DNA of 64,000 nt from positions 20,384,001 through 20,448,000 of the forward strand of contig CP086569.2 in NCBI GenBank assembly GCA_009914755.4, in the 5' to 3' direction. Positions 453 to 59,007 of this stretch are shown piece after piece (the first letter of the stretch is position 1; each line of letters starts with the position of its first letter). Source of the stretch: the human T2T-CHM13v2.0 reference genome, Homo sapiens. The position numbers and the translations under genes were made by a program. The notes beneath the pieces are model-generated. The model was not told the DNA's origin. It searched no databases and saw only the letters and a program-made list of their open reading frames with translations.

Positions 453-3400
453 GAATTCTTCTAGTTAGATCATTCAACTTCTTTGATCCAATTAGCCTCC
501 CCTGAATGTACCATGGGAGGGAGTGGGGATGTAGAGTGAAAACCTAAGTATTATCTTAGGAAATGCCATGTGCAAGTGGAAAAGTATACTTTTAAACTTT
601 TAAAGTGTACTGTCTTCTCTCCTTAACTCCTTTAAGGTAGAAAACATGGTTTGAAAAAAGTGATTGCATGGTGTCACAATGCCTTTGAGAGTCACAATCA
701 GGAAGCAGCTTAGCTAGTGTGGGACCCAACCCAGAATGAACTTCCCTTCCCACATCAAATATCAGATTAAGAAGCTCTTAACCTGAGTGTTTTAGATTCT
801 ACTTTTGTCCTTTATATCTGAACTACAGATCTCATATGGTCACCTATATCTCTAACACTCTCAACTTCGTATAAGGCATTTTTCTTGAGGAGATAGTTTT
901 CCAATTAAGTTTTACCCCTACTGCAAAATTATCTCTCATCCACCTGACCTTTTGCCCAAACTGAGAGCATCTTTTACTGGAAGAGTTGTGATGAGTTATT
1001 TCACAGGATGAAGTCAGTGGGCAATGATTGGCTAGTAACCTCATCTCTCTGCTCAGTGAATGACACTACCTCTATAAGAGCCCTGGCTGACTCTTGTCTA
1101 CTCCAAAATTTCCCATCTGGCAAAAGCTGCCCAGTGAGGGTAGGGAGGTTTCCCCTTCACATACCACCTTTTGCTCCCCTCTTCATGAGGAGACCAGCCA
1201 GAAAAGGATGGCCAGCCTGCTACACAACTGTGCCTTGGAAGGTTGTAACTCATCTCATGGGCATTCTCCCGACACCCCATGTAGTACCAGGAAACCCAGG
1301 GGACCATGACCTCATCCTGAACTATTATCAAGAACCCTCCATTGCTAAACGTGGGGTTCACTGCAATCACATTTACTCACATAGAGTTCCCCTACCTCTC
1401 AAAAGGATTTTTCCCCAAAACTGGTTCCATTCACCATTTCCCAAATCCTCCAAGTCATTAAAAAAAGGGACAATAATTTCAAAGAATTGAGGTATCTTCA
1501 CTATTACCTCTTCGGTCAAAGATTCTCATTCCTCTGAATGAACCCCTGCCACTCCCCTCACAAGATATTACATGGCCTTACAAAAGCCAGTAATAATTCT
1601 GCCCACAGTGATGGCCCAAGATACACAGACTACCAGCTATACAGGTGAGAAGTTCTATGTTCCATTGCTGCACATCTTAACCTGGATGTTCTCAAATTAG
1701 ACTATTTCAGTCATCACACACAGCATTAATCACATGGCAAAGGATATAAATTAAGAGATGTAGGGGTCCTAACCATTAGACTCTACCATAGCTGTTATTT
1801 TAAGCCCTTCTAAAAAGCAGAAAACCATGTGCCCTTGATAGATAAGAATGTAAGTCTGTTATCTGAGGTCTACCACCTGCTCCCTGCAACATGGTCTTAT
1901 GAGACACAGCACATACATTCCATAATTTATCACAGCTGTGCCATAGTAGTACCTCATAGAAGTATCTCCATGGCAACATTTACAAGTCTCCACAGCAAAA
2001 ATAAATTCTGCCACTGTTGGTGCCACAGATGCTGGGCCCTAACAAGATGGGAGGAGACTGAGACTTTTGAGGGTTTCCCATGATCCATTTCCTCTGCAGG
2101 CAACTGTATCAGCTCCAGCTGAGACTAACCTTGTTATAACTTATGCCCTCTCCATCACGGGCATCAACTTTCTCTGTATCTAATTCAAGATAATCTACAA
2201 AGCATTCAGGCATATTCTCCTGGAAGAGAAGTTCCTGAGCCAATAATTTCTGCCCAGGCATTGCGACCAAACACACCCCAGGTCTGCTTCAGTGAAGTGG
2301 CTGGCAGAAGAGAAGGAAACCCACATTATCGAAGGAAGGGCTAATATGTACATCTACTATGTATCAACAAAAATAAATCAATAATTAAAAACCTAAAAAT
2401 TGTATTATACTGTTTCTAACTATAGGGCCAAGCCTCCTTTATAAAACGAGATGTGTCCTTGTCTAAAGGAAAATAATACTTCATAGATTATTAAAAGGAA
2501 ATTATCTTTCACAGATAATTCATTCCTGATTGCCACAATGATTAAAAAGACAATCAGTCCTTCACTCCACAGATGGCAAAAACAGCCCATTTTTCTGAGA
2601 AGACACCAAACAGAAGTCAGAATCTTGTATGTGATTGCTTTATCTCACCTCCCTGGGCCCTGGGAACAGGATCACCCTGTTGCCACCAATGTGGTAATTG
2701 AGCCACAAAGCAAGTGGCTCAGCTGTACCTACATCTCTCACAGTTATTCTGGCTGGCAATATCCTCCTCCAGAAGACATTTTGGCTTTTTGTCCTGATTT
2801 CCTTTCCACCTCTCTGAGTCAGCTGTGCTGAATTTGTATGGCTTGGCGTCCTTGGTTTCTGAATGGAAAAAAAAAGAGGGATGAACATCAACACCTTATT
2901 ATAAATGCTATTTCATTTGTCTTACACTAAAGAAAAATATGTCCAAACAAATGTTTGCCCAAAATTAACCATGGACATAAACTCTTTAACCATACTGTTT
3001 TCAAGGAGTTTATGTATCTAGACACACAAGCTATAAGCATGTATATCAGTGAACACATTTTTGTGCACATTCTCTTTTGGAAATAAAAACACAGCATACA
3101 CACAAAACAGAAATAGCAGGAAAAAAATCTCACAAGGAATATAGGCTATAAACTACCTTTTGAATATTTGGAAATAAAATTTAACTTTAAAGGCTTATAT
3201 AATATTATAATGACAATAATATGAAAAACATAAATTTGAAGAACTGAACCCATAATAAACACTAGGCAGACATAAAATACTGTCCTTTTTTAATTCTTCT
3301 AGTCATGTAATTAAAATGGGCACTCAGGGGGTCATTTAAATAACTTCATTTATTTTTATAAAGATAAAACAAATTCTTTTTAACATTCCAAAAAAAGTGG

Positions 3401-3569: not shown

Positions 3570-3914
3570 GTTGCACGATCCTGCAGAACCACAGCTGCTA
3601 CACATCTTCTCAAGCAAGTATCAAGTAAGGTATTCTGAGCAGCTAGATATATTGGTTATTTTATCAACAGAAAAATAAAATCAATTGATAGGTAAATGCC
3701 ATGCATTTTTTAGAAATTATTCACAATAATTAAAACTTCTGTTACAGGCTGAGCATCTCTTATTGTAAATGCTTGGGACAATTATTTTAATTTTTTATCA
3801 GATTTTGGAATATGTACATATACATAATAAGGTATCTTGAATATGAGAACCAAGTCTATACAAAAAAATCATTTATGTTTCACATACACTTTACACACAT
3901 AGCCTAAAAGTAAT

Positions 3915-3920: not shown

Positions 3921-4179
3921 CAGTATTTTTAACAATTTTGCATATGTAACAAAGTTTACGTTAAGTATTTGTTTGTGGGCTTTTCCACTTGGGGCATGAT
4001 GGTGGCATTCAAAAGTTTCAGATTCTGTAGCAAAGTATCCAGAAACATGTATATCCTAAGTACTACTATTCACATTCCCTTACTGGACATAATATATACA
4101 TTCAAATTACAATAAGCTTCATTAGTCAAATCTGCATAGTGCCATGTCCTACCATACTCCCCCAGTACTCTTTACATAT

Positions 4180-4985
4180 TTAAACTGTAACTACAGGTAA
4201 AGTTGCTAAAAGGTGGGTAGAGGGGGTGACCTGCAATGCCCGTTGCTCCCAACTGAGCTGACTAGAATCTGCATACAGTTCAGTAGTAACACACTTGAGT
4301 CGGTCAGCCATGCAACCTGCTGAGGTGGTGACTCTCTTTACCAGGTTAGATGGCTTTGGTTTCAGAAGTTTGCCATCACTTGATTTGGCCTCATTGGCTC
4401 CATCTTTGGTGTAAGTAGAGATTATGTCCATACTTAGTGGGGCACTGCCAAGGCAATATGGTTTGGGATACTCTTGGATTTTACCAAAAGTTACAGCATG
4501 ACCATCACTCACTAGAGTTGGCTCCAGGAATGATGTTGAAACTGGCATCCCTATGTTCTCTTTGTTGGCTGGAGTCCGTTTGAGAGCATAAGCTTCATGC
4601 AAGTCACCAATGTGCCCCAACTCCTCTCTTAGCATGATAAAATCACCATGCTGCTGCAGGGATGCCTTGACAATTGGGGGCTTGGCAGGCTTGGCATTCT
4701 GACCAATATTTTTCACTGTAAAGCATGGTTTGGACATGTTTGCCTCAGTTTTGGCATCTGGTTCTTCTTGGAGAAGGTCTATGTAAACAATCTTTTTATT
4801 TCTGCTAACAGTCTTCCCTTGGTTCCAGCTGAGGTTTAGTTTTAGATTGTCAGTGTGGACTTCTGGATGAAACTCTGTACTGCCAGCTTCCAACATCTCA
4901 GAAAATTGATTCTGGACAGTTGGGTCTTTGTGGCAGGCTCTTTCATGGGAATGGGATCTTTCTCTGGTTTCTCCTCTTTTTTCTC
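4180..4985 (-). other. Out-of-frame but still open 238-codon continuation, made of tandem copy B plus a unique C-terminal tail
   Basis: The ORF track gives 4180..4896 on the minus strand. Its N-terminal half is clearly homologous to copy A in the main frame ([21 protein letters not shown]... against [21 protein letters not shown]...). The frame differs by +2 because the repeat unit is 425 bp. It carries a unique ~95-aa tail ending ...[10 protein letters not shown]. Its status is uncertain: it may be the ancestral C-terminus, an alternative isoform, or a remnant. Confidence 0.35.
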
Positions 4986-5412
4986 TTTGTTGGTTGGAGT
5001 CTGTTTGATAGTATAAGGTTCATGAAAGTCATCAATGTGCCCCAACTTCTCTCTTAGGGTGATGAAATCACCATGCTGCTGCAGGTATGGCTTGACAATT
5101 GGGGGACTGGCAGGGTCAGCATTCTGGCCAACACTTTTCATTATGAAGCTGGGTTTGGACACATTTGCATCAGTTTTAGCATCTGTTTTTTCTTGGAGAT
5201 GGTCTACATAAACAACCTTATCACTTCTGATAATAATCTTACCTTGATTCCAGCTGGGGTTCAGTTTTAGACTGTCATTGGGGACTTCTGGATGAAACGC
5301 TGTACTGCTAGCTTCCAGCATCTCAGAAAACTGATTCTGGAGAGTTGGGTCTTTGCGGCAGGCTCTTTCTTGGGAATGTGACCTCCTCTCTGGTTTCTCC
5401 TTTTTGGTGATC
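4563..5412 (-). repeat. Intragenic tandem duplication, 2 x ~425 bp (copy B 4563..4987, copy A 4988..~5412)
   Basis: The copies can be aligned by eye, for example 'ttgttggctggagtccgtttgagagcataagcttcatgcaagtcaccaatgtgccccaa' against 'ttgttggttggagtctgtttgatagtataaggttcatgaaagtcatcaatgtgccccaa'. Nucleotide identity is about 80-85%. The antisense shadow ORFs 4648..4839 and 5073..5270 are offset by 425 bp. Confidence 0.8.
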
Positions 5413-6863
5413 TCTATGGGCCTGTGTGTTATCAACATGGGTTGCACCATGCCAAATCCCAGGGCATCTTGGTAGATCAGAAACTCTGGATGGCCCATGG
5501 GCACCACATAAGGCAGTCTAGGCTTTGAGGCAAGACACCCCAGAAAGAGACTGTTGTTGGGCAACAAAACTGGATGAGGGTAGACAGGCCCTTTGTCATG
5601 TAAGGAGAAGGGTCTTATAGCAGTGGCCTTAGGTACTGGGTAAGGAAAGTAACTTCTGGGGTGGGAAATTGATGGGGGCCTGAAAGCCTCATTTGGAGGT
5701 AGAAATAGGGGGCTTGGTTGAAGGCCATTCTTATTTGCTTTGAAACTCAGTTCTGGGCTGCTGGCTTTGGCAACCTTGCTGCTAGTGCTGCTGCTTTGCT
5801 TGACAGGCACGGTTGGAGGTTGGCCCACTTGCTGAATGATGGATGATGTGGTATCCACAGAGCTCCTGTTGGTCCTAGTGCCATCTGCCCTATGTGGGGT
5901 TGGGGACTGGTAATATAGAGTTAATATAGAGGTGGGGTGGCCTGCACAGGACACTGACCCCAAAACATTAGGGATCATAGTTCCTTTGCCATTCATGCAA
6001 AGGTAAAAAGAACTTTGCTGTTGTATTATCATCCAGTCCATCACCTTGTTTTTCAACATGCTTTCACCATTGTTCTCTTCATTAGTTCTTGGCCTGGGTA
6101 CTACCCAGGATGATGGATCAGTGCTAATAAATTCAGATCTATAGATAGCACAGCCATTTCTTAGAGAAGATATCTCTTTCAGAATCTCACTTCTGGAGAG
6201 CACTAAGCCACTTCCAGCCATGCTGTGAACCAGGCCCATGGAAGCCATCTTTTTCATGTGATCAGCTTTGGAAGCATCTACCTCCACCACTTTAGAAGAC
6301 AACTCTACTGGCTTATTTGAGATGCTTTTGGTAATACTCTGCTTCTCTAACAGAGGAGGTGAGACACCATCTTTCCTGTCTTGAGCCACTGTCTTCCAGG
6401 TGTACATGGGGACTGGCTGAGCACTCTCACCCACTTCCAGGGTCTCAGGATATTTGCTATTGGAGAGCCTCGCTGTGGGGAACTCACTGCCCATCATGTT
6501 TGCCTTTGACAGTGTCACTGAAGGAGCGGTAGAGATCCTGGCATAATGCTCATGGAACTCAGAGAATATGTCTGCAACAGCCTGGGTGGGAAGGTGGACC
6601 TGGGGTGAGGGCTGAGGGGAGGCACAGAACACGAGAGTTGTATCGCCTGGAAAGCCACTAGCAACTGCCTTGGCAAATGGCACCCTGGTTGTTTCCTGTT
6701 CTGAATATGAGGATAGGTGTGGGAATTGATGGCGTTCCGGGGACTGATGGCCATCCTCCGTGGTACGCTTTTGTCTGCACAGCGGAAGAGAGGTGGAATG
6801 GCTGAGATGGCCAAAGCTGTTGAAAGCCTCATGGGTGATGCCAAGGACAATGGGATGTGGGGA
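4842..6863 (-). CDS. Large coding exon (673 codons plus stop) of an unrecognised Ser/Pro/Thr-rich, probably disordered protein. It is most likely the terminal exon
   Basis: It is a 2022-nt open frame (ORF track 4842..6875, 677 aa), far longer than chance allows. A strong 3' splice site 'ttttcctacctgccatcaccttgctatttcag|TCCCCACAT' lies at 6864/6863 on the minus strand. The frame ends with TAA at 4842, 45 codons into duplicated copy B. There are no recognisable domains such as zinc fingers or RT/gag motifs, and I do not recognise the product. Confidence 0.6.
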
Positions 6864-7174
6864 CTGAAATAGCAAGGTGATGGCAGGTAGGAAAATTGCT
6901 TCCTATTTCTGTTTCCTGGAAAACATAGCAGCTGGGCCAAGTTGGAGGACTGCTGAGGTAGCCAGAACATGTTCTGTGAATACATATTTGGAAAATCAAG
7001 GGAAGGATGGATGGCTGGTGTGGCACTCTCCATGTAAGGATTGACCCAGGGTAGCTGCAGGTAATGAGCATCATAGATGTTGCAAGGCCTATGATTGTGG
7101 CTGGTAGGCCTGTCCAAGCCAAGTGTTTCTGCTGTGCTGAAAGCATTTTGTATTCCAGGCGGTGTTTTACATAC

Positions 7175-7266
7175 AGCAGTGAAGCAATCTGGGGGTTTTT
7201 CAGAGACAGCAAAATCTTCCACTATCTCAGGTATATTTAGTTTGAACTGCATCTATGGATTTATTT
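7175..7266 (-). CDS. Putative upstream coding exon containing the start ATG (coding 7175..7252, 26 codons: [26 protein letters not shown])
   Basis: On the minus strand it has an acceptor 'gggttttcttcag|aaataaatccatagATG' and a strong donor 'cactgct|GTATGTaaaac'. The exon ends in phase 0 and joins in frame to the 6863 acceptor, giving an intron of about 311 nt. Against this, the same frame also stays open through the donor (ORF 6515..7252, 245 aa), so the alternative is an unspliced, frameshifted pseudogene-like exon. Confidence 0.3.
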
Positions 7267-7956
7267 CTGAAGAAAACCCAAGGCCACCTACAGTGTTCAT
7301 GGTAACCTCATGATCTTGCTTGGAGTTCATTCTGCTCAAACTAGAAAGACAGTGTTTCTGGGGAACAGGAGCCCTTCCTGTTTCAGGCCTGTGTGGTCCA
7401 TGATCAGTGCTTCCAGGCCGTCAATCTGATAAGCCAATTTGCATCCACCTTGGCAGAGCAACAACATAGATGTTACTTGGGACACTCCTTCAAAACAGCA
7501 GTAGCAGTACATAAGAGAAACTGCCAAGTAGTTCAATATGACATCAGCCTAACATCTGAGCAGAAGGGGTTAAAGATAAAGTAAGAAATATAGTATCTGC
7601 GTGAACTGCTTTTTTCCCTTATGCAGACTCCTTCTTAGGGCATTGTGCTGCCTGTTTTCTTCACACCTCTGTTAAACTATAATTCTAAAAGCATAAAACA
7701 ATGATCCTTTCAGATTTAAAGGATATTAAGTTGTCTATTCACTCTGGAAATTTTGCCTCCTCAGCAAAAATTGTTTGCTGCAACTTAGAAGCTACCAACT
7801 CCAAAACTGTCAGCACCACCCTTACTGGGTAAAGAACTCACACTAACCCTCCCAAGGCCTGTTAAGGTTTAGATAAGATGAGTATTCACTTAGTTTTTCT
7901 TGAGTGTAGGAAGACATTTTTAACAGAATAAGCAACCTTCAGTGGACGACAAAAAC

Positions 7957-29196: not shown

Positions 29197-32100
29197 GGAA
29201 TAGTTTCAGAAGGAATAGTACCATCTCCTGCTTGTACCTCTGGTAGAATTTGGCTGTGAATCCATCTGGTCCTGGACTTTTTTTGGTTGGTAAGCTATTA
29301 ATTGTTGCCTCAATTTCAGAGCCTGTTATTGGTCTATTCAGAGATTCAACTTCTTCCTTGTTTAGTCTTGGGAGGGTGTATGTAGTATTTTCTGAAGGTA
29401 GTTTGTATTCCTGTGGGATCGGTGGTGATATCCCCTTTATCATTTTTTATTGCATCTATTTGATTTTTCTCTCTTTTCTTACTTATTAGTCTTGTTAGCA
29501 GTCTATCAATTTTGTTGATCTTTTCAAAAAACCAGCTCCTGGATTCATGGATTTTTTGAAGCATTTTTTGTGTCTCTATTTCCTTCAGTTCTGCTTTGAT
29601 CTTAGTTATTTATTGCCTTCTGCTAGCTTTTGAATGTGTTTGCTCTTGCTTCTCTGGTTCTTTTAATTGTGATGTTAGGGTGTCAATTTTAGATCTTTCC
29701 TGCTTTCTCTTGAGGGCATTTAGTGCTATAAATTTGCCTCTACACACTGTTTTGAATGTGTCCCAGAGATTCTGGTATTTTGTGTCATTGTTCTCAATGG
29801 TTTCAAACAACATCTTTATTTCTGCCTTCATTTTGTTTTGTACTCAGTAGTCATTCAGGAGCAGGTTGTTCAGTTTCCATGTAGTTGAGTGGTTTTGAGT
29901 GAGTTTCTTAATCCTGAGTTCTAGTTTGTTTGCACTGTGGTCTGAGAGACAGTTTGTTATAATTTCTGTTCTTTTACATTTGCTGAAGAGTGCTTTACTT
30001 CCAACTATGTGGTCAATTTTGTAATAGGTGTGGTGTGGCGCTGAAAATAATGTATATTTTGTTGATTTGGGGTGGAGAGTTCTGTAGATGTCTATTAGGT
30101 CAGTTAGGTGCAGGGATGAGTTTAATTCCTGGATATCCTTGGTAACTTTCTGTCTCGTTGATCTCATTGTCTAATGCTGACAGTGGGGTGTAAAGTCTCC
30201 CATTATTATTGTGTGGGAGTCTAAGTCTCTTTCTAGGTCTCTAAGGACTTGCTTTATGAGTCTGGGTGCTCCTGTGTTGGGTGCTTATATATTTAGGATA
30301 GTTAGCTCTTCTTGTTGAATTGATCACTTTAGCATTATGTAATGGCCTTCTTTGTCTCCTTTGATCTTTGTTGGTTTAAAGTCTGTTTTATCAGAGACCA
30401 GGATTGCAACCCCTGCCTTTTTTTGTTTTCCATTTGCTTGGTAGATCTTCCTCCGTCCCTTTATTTTGAGCCTATTTGTGTCTCTGCACATGATATGGGT
30501 TTCCTGAATACAGCACACTGATGGGTCTTGACTCTTTATCCAATTTGCCGTCTGTGTCTTTTAATTGGATCATTTAGTCCATTTACATTTAAGGTTAATA
30601 TTGTTATGTGTGAATTTGATCTGGCCATTATGATGTTAGCTGGTTATTTTGCTCATTAGTTGATGCAGTTTCTTCCTAGCATTGACGGTCTTTACAATTT
30701 GGCATGTTTTTGTAGTGGCTGGTACCGGTTGTTCCTTTCGATGTTTAGTGCTTCCTTCAGGAGCTCTTTTAGGGCAGGCCTAGTGGTGACAAAATCTCTC
30801 AGCATTTGCTTGTCTGTAAAGGATTTTATTTCTCCTTCACTTATGAAGCTTAGTTTGGCTGGATATGAAATTCTGGATTGAAAATTCTTTTGTTTGAGAA
30901 TGTTGTTCCCCACTCTCTTCTGGCTTGTAGAGTTTCTGCCAAGCAATCAGCTGTTAGTCTGATGGGCTTCCCTTTGTGGGTAACCCGACCTTTCTTTCTG
31001 GCTGCCCTTAACAATTTTTCCTTCATTTCAACTTTGGTGAATCTGACAATTATGTGTCTTGCAGTTGCTCTTCTCGAGGAGTATCTTTGTGGTGTTCTCT
31101 GTATTTCCTGAATTTGACTATTGGCCTGCCTTGCTAGATTGGGGAAGTTCTCCTGGATAATATCCTGCAGAGTGTTTTCCAACTTGGTTCCATTCTCCCC
31201 ATCACTTTCAGGTACACCAATCAGACGTAGATTTGGTCTTTTCATATAGTGCCATATTTCTTGGAGGCTTTGTTCATTTCTTTTTATTCTTTTTTCTCTA
31301 AACTTCTCTTCTTGCTTCATTTCATTCATTTCATCTTCCATCACTGATACCCTTTCTTCCAGTTGATCGAATCAGCTACTGAGGTTGTACATTCATCACA
31401 TAGTTCTCATGCCATGGTTTTCAGCTCCATCAAGTCCTTTAAGGACTTCTCTGCATTGGTTATTCTAGTTAGCCATTTGTCTAATTTTTTTCAAGGTTTT
31501 TAGCTTCTTGGTCATGGGTTCTAACTTCCTCCTTTAGCTCAGAGTAGTTTGATCGTCTGAAGCCTCCTTCTCTCAACTTGTCCGAGTCATTCTCCATAGC
31601 TCAGAGTAGTTAGATCATCTGAAGCCTCCTTCTCTCAACTTGTCCGAGTCATTCTCCATCCAGCTTTGTTCCATTTCTGGTGACTAACTTCATTCCTTTG
31701 GACAAGGACAGGCGCTCTGATTTTTAGAGTTTCCAGTTTTTCTGCTCTGTTTTTTCCCCATCTTTGTTGTTTTATCTACCTTTGGTCTTTGATGATGGTG
31801 ACGTACAGATGGGGGTTTGGTGTGAATATCCTTTCTGTTTGTTAGTTTTCCTTCTAACAGTCAGGACCCTCAGCTGCAAGTCTGTTGGAGTTTGCTGGAG
31901 GTCCATTCCAGACCCTGTTTGCCTGGGTATCAGCAGCAGAGGCTGCAGAACAGCGGATATTGGTGAACAGCAAATGTTGCTGCCTGATCATTCCTCTGGA
32001 AGTTTTGTCTCAGAGGAGTATCCGGCTGTGTGAGGTGTCAGTCTGCCCCTACTTGGGGGTGCCTCCCAGTTAGGCAACTGGGGGGTCAGAGACCCACTTT

Positions 32101-57746: not shown

Positions 57747-59007
57747 CTCCCCCTTCCCCTCCCCCTCCCCCTCTCCCTCTCCCTCTCCACGGTCTCCCCC
57801 TGATGCCGAGCGGAGGCTGGACTGTACTGCCGCCATCTCGGCTCACTGCAACCTCCCTGCCTGATTCTCCTGCCTCAGCCTGCCGAGTGCCTGGGATTGC
57901 AGGCATGCGCCGCCACGCCTGACTCGTTTTTGTATTTTTTGGTGGAGACGGGGTTTCGCCGTGTTGGCCGGGCTGGTCTGCAGCTCCTCACCGCGAGTGA
58001 TCTGCCTGCCTCCGCCTCCGGAGGTGCCGGGATTGCAGACGGAATCTCGCTCAGTCAGTGCTCAATGTTGCCCAGGCTGGAGTGCAGTGGCGTGATCTCG
58101 GCTCGCTACAACCCCCACCTCCCAGCCGCCTGCCTTGGCCTCCCAAAGTGCTGAGATTGTAGCCTCTGCCTGGCTGCCACCCCGTCTGGGAACTGAGGAG
58201 TGTCTCTGCCTGACCGCCACCCCGTCTGGGAGGTGAGGAGCATCTGCACGGCCGCCCCGTCTGAGAAGTGAGGAGTCCCTCTGCCCAGCAGCCGCCCCGT
58301 CTGGGAAGTGAGGAGCCCCTCCGCCCAGCAGCTGCCCCATCCGGGAGGGAGGTGGGGGGCAGCCCCCGCCCTGCCAGCTGCCCCCTCTGGGAGGGAGGTG
58401 GGGGGCAGCCCCCGCCAGGCCACTGCCCCGTCCGGGAAGTGAGGGGCCCGTGTGCCTGGTGGCCACCCCATCTGGGAGGTGTACCCAACAGCTCATCGAG
58501 AACGGGCCATGATGACGATGGCGATTTTGTCAAATAGAAAAGGGGGAAATGTGGAGAAAAGAAAGAGAGATCAGATTGTTACTGTGTCTGTGTAGCAAGA
58601 AGTAGACATGGGAGACTCCATTTTGTTCTGTACTAAGAAAAATTCTTCTGCCTTGGGATGCCATTAATCTATAACCTTACCCCCAACCCCCTGTTCTCTG
58701 AAACATGTGCTGTGTCCACTCAGGGTTAAATGGATTAAGGGCGGTGCAAGATGTGCTTTGTTAAACAGATGCTTGAAGGCAGCATGCTCTTTAAGAGTCA
58801 TCACCACTCCCTAATCTCAAGTACCCAGGGACACAAACCCTGCGAAGGCCACAGGGTCCTCTGCCTAGGAAAACCGGAGACCCTTGTTCACATATTTATC
58901 TGCTGACCTTCCCTCCACTATTGTCCTATGACCCTGCCAAATCCCCCTCTCTGAGAAACACCCAAGAATGATCAATGAATACTAAAAAAAAAAAAAAAAA
59001 AAAAAAA
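57747..59007 (+). mobile_element. SVA retrotransposon (complete: CCCTCT hexamer repeat, antisense Alu-like region, short VNTR, SINE-R, poly(A))
   Basis: The hexamer run is 'ccctcccccttcccctccccctccccctctccctctccctctcc'. The Alu-like region is CpG-rich. The VNTR units read 'ccaccccgtctgggaggtgaggagc...'. The SINE-R part reads 'ctcatcgagaacgggccatgatgacgatggcgattttgtcaaatagaaaagggggaaatgtggagaaaagaaagagagatcagattgttactgtgtctgtgtag...cccaagaatgatcaatgaatact' and is followed by A(24). Confidence 0.85.

What the first reader, a model, noticed from the sequence alone, without database searches (positions are those of the whole stretch)
4180..6863. Large coding exon of an unrecognised disordered protein, with a 425-bp frameshifting tandem duplication whose shifted frame remains open
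The minus-strand exon is open for 2022 nt. It contains two tandem ~425-bp copies (4563..4987 and 4988..5412) at about 80-85% nucleotide identity. Because 425 = 3x141+2, copy B is homologous to copy A in the +2 frame. The main frame therefore stops 45 codons into copy B, at 4842. Copy B together with a unique 95-aa tail stays open for 238 codons (4180..4896) in the shifted frame. That divergence implies a duplication tens of millions of years old. A genuinely out-of-frame segment should have collected stop codons in that time, so its openness suggests it is still translated in some way. Possibilities are an alternative splice or isoform that restores the frame, an exon-internal intron, or an ancestral C-terminus. 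Alternatively, the gene has only recently been truncated. I cannot name the protein.
Basis: seen in the sequence. Interest (0 to 1): 0.6.

Follow-up and report, generated by a model that had tools for sequence, protein, structure and literature searches.

The report
Decaying Y-linked BCOR pseudogene exon (BCORP1)
The long open frames belong to the big exon of a dead Y-chromosome copy of the BCOR gene. The "shifted but open" frame arose because an old, originally in-frame internal duplication was put out of frame only recently by a one-base deletion, so the finding is ordinary.

Summary
The sequence facts hold. Two tandem copies at 4555..5405 are 85.6% identical. There is a 677-codon ORF (4842..6875, minus strand) and a 238-codon ORF (4180..4896, minus strand).

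The protein is recognisable. The whole stretch 7448..4231 (minus strand) is the homologue of the large exon 4 of BCOR (BCL-6 corepressor), at about 60% amino-acid and 70-72% nucleotide identity. The orthologues lie on ape and monkey chromosome-scale records whose sizes fit Y chromosomes. This matches BCORP1, the known unprocessed Y pseudogene of BCOR.

The duplication is old. Chimpanzee, orangutan and Rhinopithecus all have it, and I estimate it at roughly 50 My. In orangutan it is 426 bp, which is 142 codons and in frame. Human and chimpanzee share a later 1-bp deletion at 4961/4960, 19 nt into copy B, and that deletion causes the frameshift. Putting one base back fuses the two ORFs into a single 898-codon frame.

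Every lineage carries its own stops and frameshifts. In-frame dN/dS among the Y copies (0.6-1.0) matches out-of-frame controls. Under neutral permutation, copy B plus the tail stays open with P=0.31-0.57.

Nothing here suggests translation. This is an ordinary, already known pseudogene.

The parts
4231..7448 (-). Homologue of BCOR exon 4 (3218 nt). It is an unprocessed pseudogene exon. It is bounded by acceptor AG at 7450-7449 and donor GT at 4230-4229.
   Evidence: tblastn of mammalian BCOR exon-4 proteins P0003 and P0005 matches 7434..4219 collinearly in four successive frames. Nucleotide identity to BCOR DNA is 70-72%. Boundaries were read from the sequence and from the alignment to BCOR.
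4980..5405 (-). Copy A of the tandem duplication (426 nt, 142 codons). It is read in the BCOR frame by the main ORF.
   Evidence: TRF. Global alignment. Copy A sequences of four catarrhines cluster together.
4555..4979 (-). Copy B of the tandem duplication. It is 425 nt in human and chimpanzee and 426 nt in orangutan.
   Evidence: The junction shows AAAGAG microhomology.
4960..4961 (-). Site of the 1-bp deletion shared by human and chimpanzee (GAGAGGAGGTCC became GAGA-AAGATCC). This deletion is the actual frameshift.
   Evidence: Five-species alignment. Re-inserting one base here gives a single 898-codon ORF.
4842..6875 (-). 677-codon ORF. The part ~6690..4962 is in the BCOR frame. The 5' ~60 codons and the last ~39 codons are out of the ancestral frame.
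4180..4896 (-). 238-codon 'frame-b' ORF (stop-free from about 5019). It consists of copy B in the BCOR frame, then the end of exon 4, then 17 codons of intron read-through.
   Evidence: 87% identity to the orangutan Y model and about 60% to BCOR.
6515..7252 (-). 245-codon ORF. Down to ~6690 it is the 5' part of the exon in the BCOR frame, starting at the conserved Met (BCOR ...PEMQFKP...).
6686..6687 (-). 1-bp deletion shared by human, chimpanzee and orangutan (P0003/ORF codon 272). It separates the 245-codon ORF from the 677-codon ORF. Rhinopithecus lacks it.
7253..7255 (-). Human-specific nonsense codon (GAG to TAG) at P0003/ORF codon 80, immediately before the conserved ATG.
   Evidence: Chimpanzee, orangutan and Rhinopithecus all have GAG.
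7346..7437 (-). Two 1-bp deletions (at 7437/7436 and 7347/7346) shared by all four catarrhine Y copies. They break the canonical reading frame soon after the exon start.
2722..2865 (-). Homologue of the next BCOR exon (exon 5), about 1.4 kb downstream. Its presence shows that intron-exon structure is retained, so this is not a processed copy.
   Evidence: tblastn with the Rhinopithecus Y model (84%) and with bird BCOR (48%). Translation.

Best explanation
The region is the exon-4 homologue of an unprocessed, X-degenerate Y-chromosome pseudogene of BCOR. It is most likely human BCORP1. Proposed history:
1. A Y-linked BCOR copy (BCORY) diverged from X-linked BCOR under relaxed but real constraint.
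2. Roughly 50 My ago, and certainly before the ape/Old World monkey split, a microhomology-mediated tandem duplication of 426 bp added 142 codons IN FRAME to the disordered middle of exon 4.
3. By the catarrhine ancestor the canonical frame had been broken by two 1-bp deletions near the exon start. Since then the sequence has drifted neutrally.
4. Each lineage then collected its own lesions. In the human-chimpanzee ancestor one of these was a 1-bp deletion 19 nt into copy B. That deletion split a single long frame into the present 677-codon and 238-codon ORFs.

The shifted frame is open because it has been 'shifted' only since after the orangutan split. A frame of ~250 codons easily escapes stops by chance over that time. 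Steps 2 and 4 are shown directly by the alignments. The neutral drift in step 3 is shown by dN/dS and stop counts. The date in step 2 and the identification as human BCORP1 are inferred.
For: Identity of the sequence:
- The 677-aa ORF hits BCL-6 corepressor: 93% to a chimpanzee model on a 36-Mb record and about 60% to mammalian BCOR.
- BCOR proteins align collinearly over 7434..4219 in four frames.
- Orthologous loci on chromosome-scale chimpanzee, orangutan and Rhinopithecus records are 98.5%, 94.5% and 90.2% identical.

The duplication:
- It is present in all of these species. Copy A sequences cluster with copy A and copy B with copy B.
- The orangutan junction reads ...[26 protein letters not shown]... 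in frame, with a 426-nt unit.
- Human and chimpanzee alone lack one base at 4961/4960. Repairing it yields an 898-codon ORF.

Lineage-specific lesions:
- Human: stop at codon 80.
- Chimpanzee: stop at 184 and a 1-bp deletion.
- Orangutan: stops at 508 and 953, a 2-bp insertion and a 1-bp deletion.
- Rhinopithecus: five stops plus 8-bp, 1-bp, 14-bp and 2-bp indels.
- The splice acceptor AG is lost in orangutan and Rhinopithecus.

Selection tests:
- NG86 omega within apes is 0.73 against shifted-frame controls of 0.63 and 0.65. The human lineage gives 0.98.
- Y versus X gives 0.19-0.29 and X versus X gives 0.09.
- In the permutation null, observed stops fit neutrality (P=0.25-0.32). P(copy B plus tail open) is 0.31-0.57, and P(BCOR-homologous part of the main ORF open) is 0.10-0.27.

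Literature:
- BCORP1 is annotated as a Y pseudogene with no direct protein evidence (PMC13321555).
Against: - I could not read a genome annotation, so the label 'human BCORP1' rests on orthology to records I take to be ape Y chromosomes, on record sizes, and on memory of the gene's name and location.
- The branch leading to Rhinopithecus plus the ape stem has a somewhat lower in-frame omega (0.61) than its controls (0.93, 0.79).
- The inferred ancestral copy A versus copy B comparison gives 0.45 against 1.54 and 0.68. Some coding constraint after the duplication, on the early branches, is therefore not excluded.
- Observed stops are below expectation in every lineage (9 observed versus about 15 expected if summed; the human and chimpanzee rows share a branch, so the sum is approximate). 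This is not significant.
- BCORP1 RNA is reported in several tissues.
- A UniProt entry (Q8N888) appears in low-confidence proteomics lists.
Confidence: 0.9

Rival explanations
1. The human 677-codon ORF (or an ATG- or GTG-initiated part of it) is still translated from BCORP1 transcripts. The product would be a truncated BCOR-like protein that keeps the BCL6-binding motif. Its openness in human would then reflect selection.
For: - It is the longest ORF among the four lineages, and it is intact only in human.
- The chance of the BCOR-homologous part staying open is modest, at 0.10-0.27.
- The BCL6-binding stretch is recognisable: [17 protein letters not shown] against BCOR RSEIISTAPSSWVVPGP.
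- BCORP1 RNA is reported as expressed.
- A gene caller produced a 613-aa product from an independent Logan contig.
Against: - Human-lineage omega is 0.98.
- The orthologous frame is broken in chimpanzee (1-bp deletion at 6356), orangutan and Rhinopithecus.
- The ORF has no in-frame link to the upstream exon part, because of the 1-bp deletion at ~6687 and the TAG at 7255-7253. It also opens with about 60 out-of-frame codons.
- The C-terminal BCOR, ankyrin and PUFD parts are cut off.
- The literature states there is no direct evidence of a protein.
Confidence: 0.04
2. The duplication itself was a 425-bp frameshifting event tens of millions of years ago, and the shifted frame has been kept open by translation through an alternative isoform, an exon-internal intron or recoding.
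For: In human, the offset between the copies is 425 over 95% of their length. The shifted frame is open for 279 codons.
Against: - The orangutan unit is 426 nt and reads through in frame.
- Rhinopithecus copy B has the same length at the deletion site, with a different 1-bp deletion of its own.
- Copy A in every species, and BCOR itself, carry the extra base. The 425 state is therefore derived in human and chimpanzee.
- Copy B and the tail carry lineage-specific lesions elsewhere.
- Omega of the tail is 1.3-1.6.
Confidence: 0.02
3. The locus is a functional Y gene in some catarrhines. The 'BCL-6 corepressor' proteins annotated in chimpanzee, orangutan and Rhinopithecus would then be real, and human would have lost it only lately.
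For: NCBI gene models exist for these species. The Rhinopithecus downstream model still hits the BCOR, ankyrin and PUFD Pfam families.
Against: - The models are stitched around lesions. The chimpanzee model skips a 1-bp deletion and most of copy B. The orangutan model is a 375-aa piece that goes straight from the sequence upstream of the duplication into copy B, skipping copy A. The Rhinopithecus model is flagged LOW QUALITY and is a hybrid of the first half of copy A and the second half of copy B.
- All four species share two early 1-bp deletions.
- Omega among the species equals the controls.
Confidence: 0.03

Closest known systems
BCORP1 (BCL6 corepressor pseudogene 1, human Yq; UniProt Q8N888 'Putative BCoR-like protein 2')
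   Same: It is a BCOR-derived, Y-linked, unprocessed pseudogene, with orthologues on records I take to be ape Y chromosomes. The literature calls it a Y pseudogene with RNA but no verified protein. Most probably it is this very locus.
   Different: I could not check coordinates against an annotation. As far as my paper searches showed, the in-frame 426-bp duplication and the human-chimpanzee 1-bp deletion are details not described in the papers found.
BCOR (X-linked BCL-6 corepressor), exon 4
   Same: Homology is collinear over the whole exon at about 60% amino-acid and 70-72% nucleotide identity. The exon boundaries are the same, the next exon follows downstream, and a BCL6-binding motif is recognisable.
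   Different: BCOR has a single copy of the 142-codon unit, an intact frame and strong constraint (omega 0.09). The Y copy has the duplication, at least four frame breaks and a stop, and it evolves neutrally.
BCORY1/BCORY2 of dog, and BCORY of horse and pig (functional X-degenerate Y genes)
   Same: They share the same evolutionary origin, as the ancestral X-Y gene pair of BCOR (PMC3759724; PMC6063916).
   Different: Those are reported as functional genes. The primate copy is a relic.
Other X-degenerate Y pseudogenes (general class)
   Same: Retained intron-exon structure, shared early lesions followed by lineage-specific decay, and omega near the neutral control.
   Different: This one has unusually long surviving ORFs in human. 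The permutation test shows that this is within chance.

Membership tests
BCOR family (homologue of BCOR exon 4) | Significant, collinear sequence similarity to BCOR across the exon | tested here: met
   E=0 hits named BCL-6 corepressor. tblastn covers P0003 residues 20-1014, of which about 962 lie within exon 4, over window 7434..4078. The frame-b ORF also hits BCOR.
BCOR family (homologue of BCOR exon 4) | BCL6-binding motif (…APSSWVVPGP…; location in BCOR recalled from memory) | tested here: met
   Direct comparison: window [20 protein letters not shown] against P0003 RSEIISTAPSSWVVPGP. Binding itself was not tested. There is no PDB sequence hit, because the peptide chains are too short.
BCOR family (homologue of BCOR exon 4) | C-terminal BCOR domain, ankyrin repeats and PUFD | not testable with these tools
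   These exons lie beyond the start of the window. In the Rhinopithecus Y locus the downstream model hits PF15808, Ank and PF16553.
Functional protein-coding gene | Uninterrupted reading frame through the exon in the ancestral frame | tested here: not met
   Human carries 1-bp deletions at about 7437, 7347, 6687 and 4961, plus a TAG at 7255-7253.
Functional protein-coding gene | Purifying selection (omega below the neutral control) among orthologues | tested here: not met
   In-frame omega is 0.64-1.08, against shifted-frame controls of 0.55-0.93.
Unprocessed (X-degenerate) pseudogene | Intron-exon structure of the parent gene is retained, with no poly(A) or retroposition signature | tested here: met
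   AG acceptor and GT donor sit at the BCOR exon boundaries. The exon-5 homologue lies 1.4 kb downstream. A 96-nt intronic block matches the sequence flanking BCOR exon 4 in L005 at 77% identity.
Unprocessed (X-degenerate) pseudogene | Disabling lesions, some shared and some lineage-specific, at neutral frequency | tested here: met
   The permutation test gives observed versus expected stops with P=0.25-0.32.
Unprocessed (X-degenerate) pseudogene | Location on the Y chromosome | tested here: inconclusive
   The orthologues lie on chromosome-scale records of 36.4, 49.4, 67.8 and 15.6 Mb in T2T ape and Rhinopithecus assemblies. From memory these sizes fit Y chromosomes. The tools do not print the chromosome name.
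Processed pseudogene | Intronless cDNA copy | tested here: not met
   Exons 4 and 5 are separated by about 1.4 kb of intron-like sequence.

The most novel reading that the evidence does not exclude
In the human lineage alone, the 677-codon frame of BCORP1 exon 4 would be kept and translated in testis. The product would be a truncated Y-encoded BCOR fragment that still carries a BCL6-binding motif but lacks the PCGF1-binding C-terminus, so it could act as a male-specific decoy for BCL6.
Probability: 0.03. Interest if true: 0.45.

Novelty: already known. Interest (0 to 1): 0.08.

Why it matters
It matters little beyond bookkeeping. The locus is a known Y pseudogene, and the apparent paradox of an old frameshift with an open frame disappears once orthologues are compared.

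Three small points of value remain:
1. It is a clean worked example of how an 'open shifted frame' can mislead. The offset between repeat copies in one species need not be the offset at which the duplication arose.
2. It shows that the 'BCL-6 corepressor' protein models in chimpanzee, orangutan and Rhinopithecus are stitched pseudogene models.
3. It suggests that BCORY carried an in-frame 142-residue duplication, and may have stayed functional until not long before the catarrhine radiation. That is a minor datum for the history of Y-gene loss in primates.

Tried and rejected
- Pfam on the three ORFs gave no family. This is expected for the disordered part of BCOR.
- A PDB sequence search gave no hit.
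- An Rfam scan of the whole window gave nothing at gathering score.
I rejected it because one base accounts for the whole frame change.
- I considered gene conversion between the copies. I rejected it because copy A and copy B form separate clades across species.
- I considered a processed pseudogene. I rejected it because exon boundaries and the next exon are retained.
- I tried a lemur protein (P0040, Prolemur) as a possible pre-duplication Y copy. It has a single unit. However, it is about equally far from X BCOR (62%) and from the catarrhine Y copy (54%), so its linkage is unclear and I did not use it for dating.
- The Logan contig carrying P0001 (L007; its alignment to the window was not run) gave no splicing information.
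- One script call printed nothing and produced no result.
Full report
**1. The observation**

TRF reports one strong array at 4556..5405: period 425, 2.0 copies, 85% matches, score 1271. The repeat finder independently gives a spacing of 425. The ORF list shows three minus-strand ORFs:
- 4842..6875, 677 codons
- 4180..4896, 238 codons
- 6515..7252, 245 codons

A gapped global alignment refines the picture. Copy A (5405..4980) is 426 nt and copy B (4979..4555) is 425 nt. There is a single 1-nt gap after nt 19, and identity is 364/425 = 85.6%. The stop-free stretch of 'frame b' reaches up to about 5019, giving 279 codons.

**2. What the sequence is**

The 677-aa translation finds 'BCL-6 corepressor':
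- 93% identity to a chimpanzee model on a 36-Mb record
- 78-81% to Rhinopithecus and orangutan models
- about 60% to mammalian BCOR exon-4 products

The frame-b translation also hits BCOR. Pfam finds nothing, as expected for the disordered middle of BCOR.

tblastn of BCOR proteins maps homology collinearly over 7434..4219, but in four successive frames.

Reading the sequence against BCOR DNA gives the exon limits:
- acceptor AG at 7450-7449
- first exon base at 7448
- last exon base at 4231 (…REQRALQ)
- donor GT at 4230-4229

The 'unique 95-aa tail' is therefore the end of BCOR exon 4 plus 17 codons of intron read-through.

A homologue of the next BCOR exon lies at 2865..2722. A 96-nt intronic block (3643..3738) still matches sequence downstream of the exon in the BCOR contig L005. 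The copy is therefore unprocessed.

The orthologous loci I fetched lie on chromosome-scale records:

| Species | Record size | Identity to window |
|---|---|---|
| Chimpanzee | 36.4 Mb | 98.5% |
| Bornean / Sumatran orangutan | 49.4 / 67.8 Mb | 94.5% |
| Rhinopithecus | 15.6 Mb | 90.2% |

From memory, these sizes fit the published Y chromosomes, and 1.5% divergence from chimpanzee fits human.

The literature agrees. [quoted passage not shown] BCORY is a gene in dog, horse and pig. Human BCORP1 is 'annotated as a Y-chromosome pseudogene' without direct protein evidence (PMC13321555). Its UniProt entry is Q8N888, 'Putative BCoR-like protein 2'.

**3. The duplication and the frameshift are two separate events**

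All four other catarrhine sequences contain both copies. In a distance matrix the copy A sequences group together and the copy B sequences group together. A-to-B distances are 0.16-0.24, against human-Rhinopithecus distances of 0.10-0.14. The duplication therefore predates the ape/Old World monkey split.

Parsimony-inferred ancestral A and B copies differ at 34 of 412 sites. That is about as much per lineage as the human lineage has accumulated since that split. It puts the event very roughly at 50 My, with a plausible range of 40-65 My (inference).

At the junction, orangutan reads …ACT CCA GCC AAC AAA GAG AAA AAA GAG GAG AAA CCA GAG AGG AGG TCC CAT…, which translates to …[17 protein letters not shown]…. 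Its unit is 426 nt, or 142 codons, in frame. Orangutan has a single 573-codon frame running through copy A, copy B and the tail.

Human and chimpanzee alone have GAGA-AAGATCC where the other sequences have a longer form:
- orangutan copy B: GAGAGGAGGTCC
- Rhinopithecus copy B: GATAGGAGGTCC
- copy A in every species: GAGAGGAGGTCA

The 1-bp deletion at 4961/4960 is therefore derived. It arose after the orangutan split and before the human-chimpanzee split. Re-inserting one base there fuses the 677- and 238-codon ORFs into one 898-codon ORF.

The junction has AAAGAG microhomology, as expected for a slippage or end-joining duplication.

**4. Is anything still constrained?**

I projected each Y sequence onto the BCOR codon frame. 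Codon numbers follow the ORF of the BCOR contig L005 (protein P0003), whose first ~14 codons read through the upstream intron. Each lineage has its own lesions:

| Lineage | Lesions |
|---|---|
| Human | GAG to TAG at codon 80 (7255-7253) |
| Chimpanzee | stop at 184; 1-bp deletion at 6356 |
| Orangutan | stops at 508 and 953; 2-bp insertion; 1-bp deletion; acceptor AG changed to TG |
| Rhinopithecus | five stops; 8-bp, 1-bp, 14-bp, 1-bp and 2-bp indels (the 2-bp one inside copy B); acceptor lost |
| Apes (shared) | 1-bp deletion at ~6687 |
| All four (shared) | 1-bp deletions at ~7437 and ~7347 |

The deletions shared by all four species make a canonically spliced message terminate about 14 codons into the exon.

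dN/dS (Nei-Gojobori method, NG86) gives the following:

| Comparison | In-frame omega | Shifted-frame controls |
|---|---|---|
| X vs X | 0.09 | n/a |
| Y vs X | 0.19-0.29 | n/a |
| Y vs Y | 0.64-1.08 | 0.55-0.93 |
| Within apes | 0.73 | 0.63 / 0.65 |
| Human lineage | 0.98 | 0.55 / 0.68 |
| Tail | 1.3-1.6 | 0.23-1.27 |

The controls are the same alignments shifted by 1 or 2 nt.

Only the deepest branches hint at lower values. Rhinopithecus plus the ape stem gives 0.61 against 0.93 and 0.79. Ancestral A versus ancestral B gives 0.45 [0.20-0.93] against 1.54 and 0.68. The intervals overlap.

I also ran a permutation null that re-places the observed substitutions on matching bases. Expected versus observed stops were:

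| Lineage | Expected | Observed |
|---|---|---|
| Human | 2.5 | 1 |
| Chimpanzee | 2.6 | 1 |
| Orangutan | 3.4 | 2 |
| Rhinopithecus | 6.8 | 5 |

P is 0.25-0.32 for each lineage. Copy B plus the tail remains open in 31-57% of replicates. The BCOR-homologous part of the main ORF remains open in 10-27%. The open frames are unremarkable.

**5. Mechanism and history (best account)**

BCORY diverged from BCOR under relaxed constraint. It then gained an in-frame 142-codon duplication in a disordered region. It lost its canonical frame before the catarrhine ancestor and has decayed independently since.

The absence of any stop shared by all catarrhines, together with the low-ish omega on the deep branches, suggests that inactivation did not long precede that ancestor and that the duplication may have arisen in a living gene. 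This is inference and is weakly supported.

The human arrangement of 677 plus 238 codons is the by-product of one late 1-bp deletion.

**6. Rivals**

Translation of the human ORF cannot be excluded by sequence alone, but several points argue against it:
- human-branch omega is 0.98;
- the chimpanzee frame is broken;
- the ORF is disconnected from the upstream part of the exon;
- the functional C-terminus is missing.

I give this rival about 4%.

The NCBI 'BCL-6 corepressor' models in chimpanzee, orangutan and Rhinopithecus are stitched around the lesions.

**7. Verdict**

This is a known, ordinary pseudogene exon. Interest is low.

Noticed in passing
window 2722-2865 (-): Homologue of BCOR exon 5 (…[41 protein letters not shown]…). 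It is 84% identical to the Rhinopithecus Y model. The first ~15 codons of the exon (AMMRFSELE…) are not recovered in this frame in human.
   Followed up: partly
window 3643-3738: A 96-nt block in the intron after exon 4 matches, at 77% identity, sequence downstream of the exon in the mammalian BCOR contig L005 (3439-3534). This is higher than the exon's own 70-72%. It may be a conserved intronic element or a small alternative exon of BCOR.
   Followed up: no
L001, L002/L003, L004 (proteins P0002, P0007, P0006): The public 'BCL-6 corepressor' protein models for chimpanzee, orangutan and Rhinopithecus are gene-prediction artefacts built on this pseudogene. The chimpanzee model skips a frameshift and most of copy B. 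The orangutan model skips copy A. The Rhinopithecus model joins the first half of copy A to the second half of copy B.
   Followed up: yes
literature (PMC13321555) versus window 4231-7448: That paper states that BCORP1 and BCOR share more than 99% nucleotide identity. Here exon 4 is only 70-72% identical to mammalian BCOR DNA. The orangutan Y product is 61-65% identical to gibbon X BCOR. This could matter for the paper's cross-reactivity control.
   Followed up: partly
window 7449-7450 and orthologues: The exon-4 splice acceptor AG is intact in human and chimpanzee. It is mutated to TG in both orangutans and to AT in Rhinopithecus.
   Followed up: yes
window 30850-31344 (-) and 31535-31659: L1 ORF1 fragment, with Pfam Transposase_22 and the trimerisation domain (E=3.5e-61). 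It is followed by a 62-bp unit repeated twice at 96% identity. The strong A/T skew over 8-18 kb and 28-32 kb fits L1 bodies.
   Followed up: partly
window 58163-58437: GC-rich tandem repeats of 40-75 bp (…GCCCCGTCTGGGAAGTGAGGAG…). From memory they look like the VNTR region of an SVA-type retroelement. They overlap a 160-codon ORF that has no Pfam hit.
   Followed up: no
protein P0040 (Prolemur simus, UniProt A0A8C9DKU9): A diverged BCOR-like lemur protein with a single copy of the 142-residue unit. It is 62% identical to X BCOR and 54% to the orangutan Y copy. It could be a strepsirrhine BCORY and would help date the duplication.
   Followed up: partly
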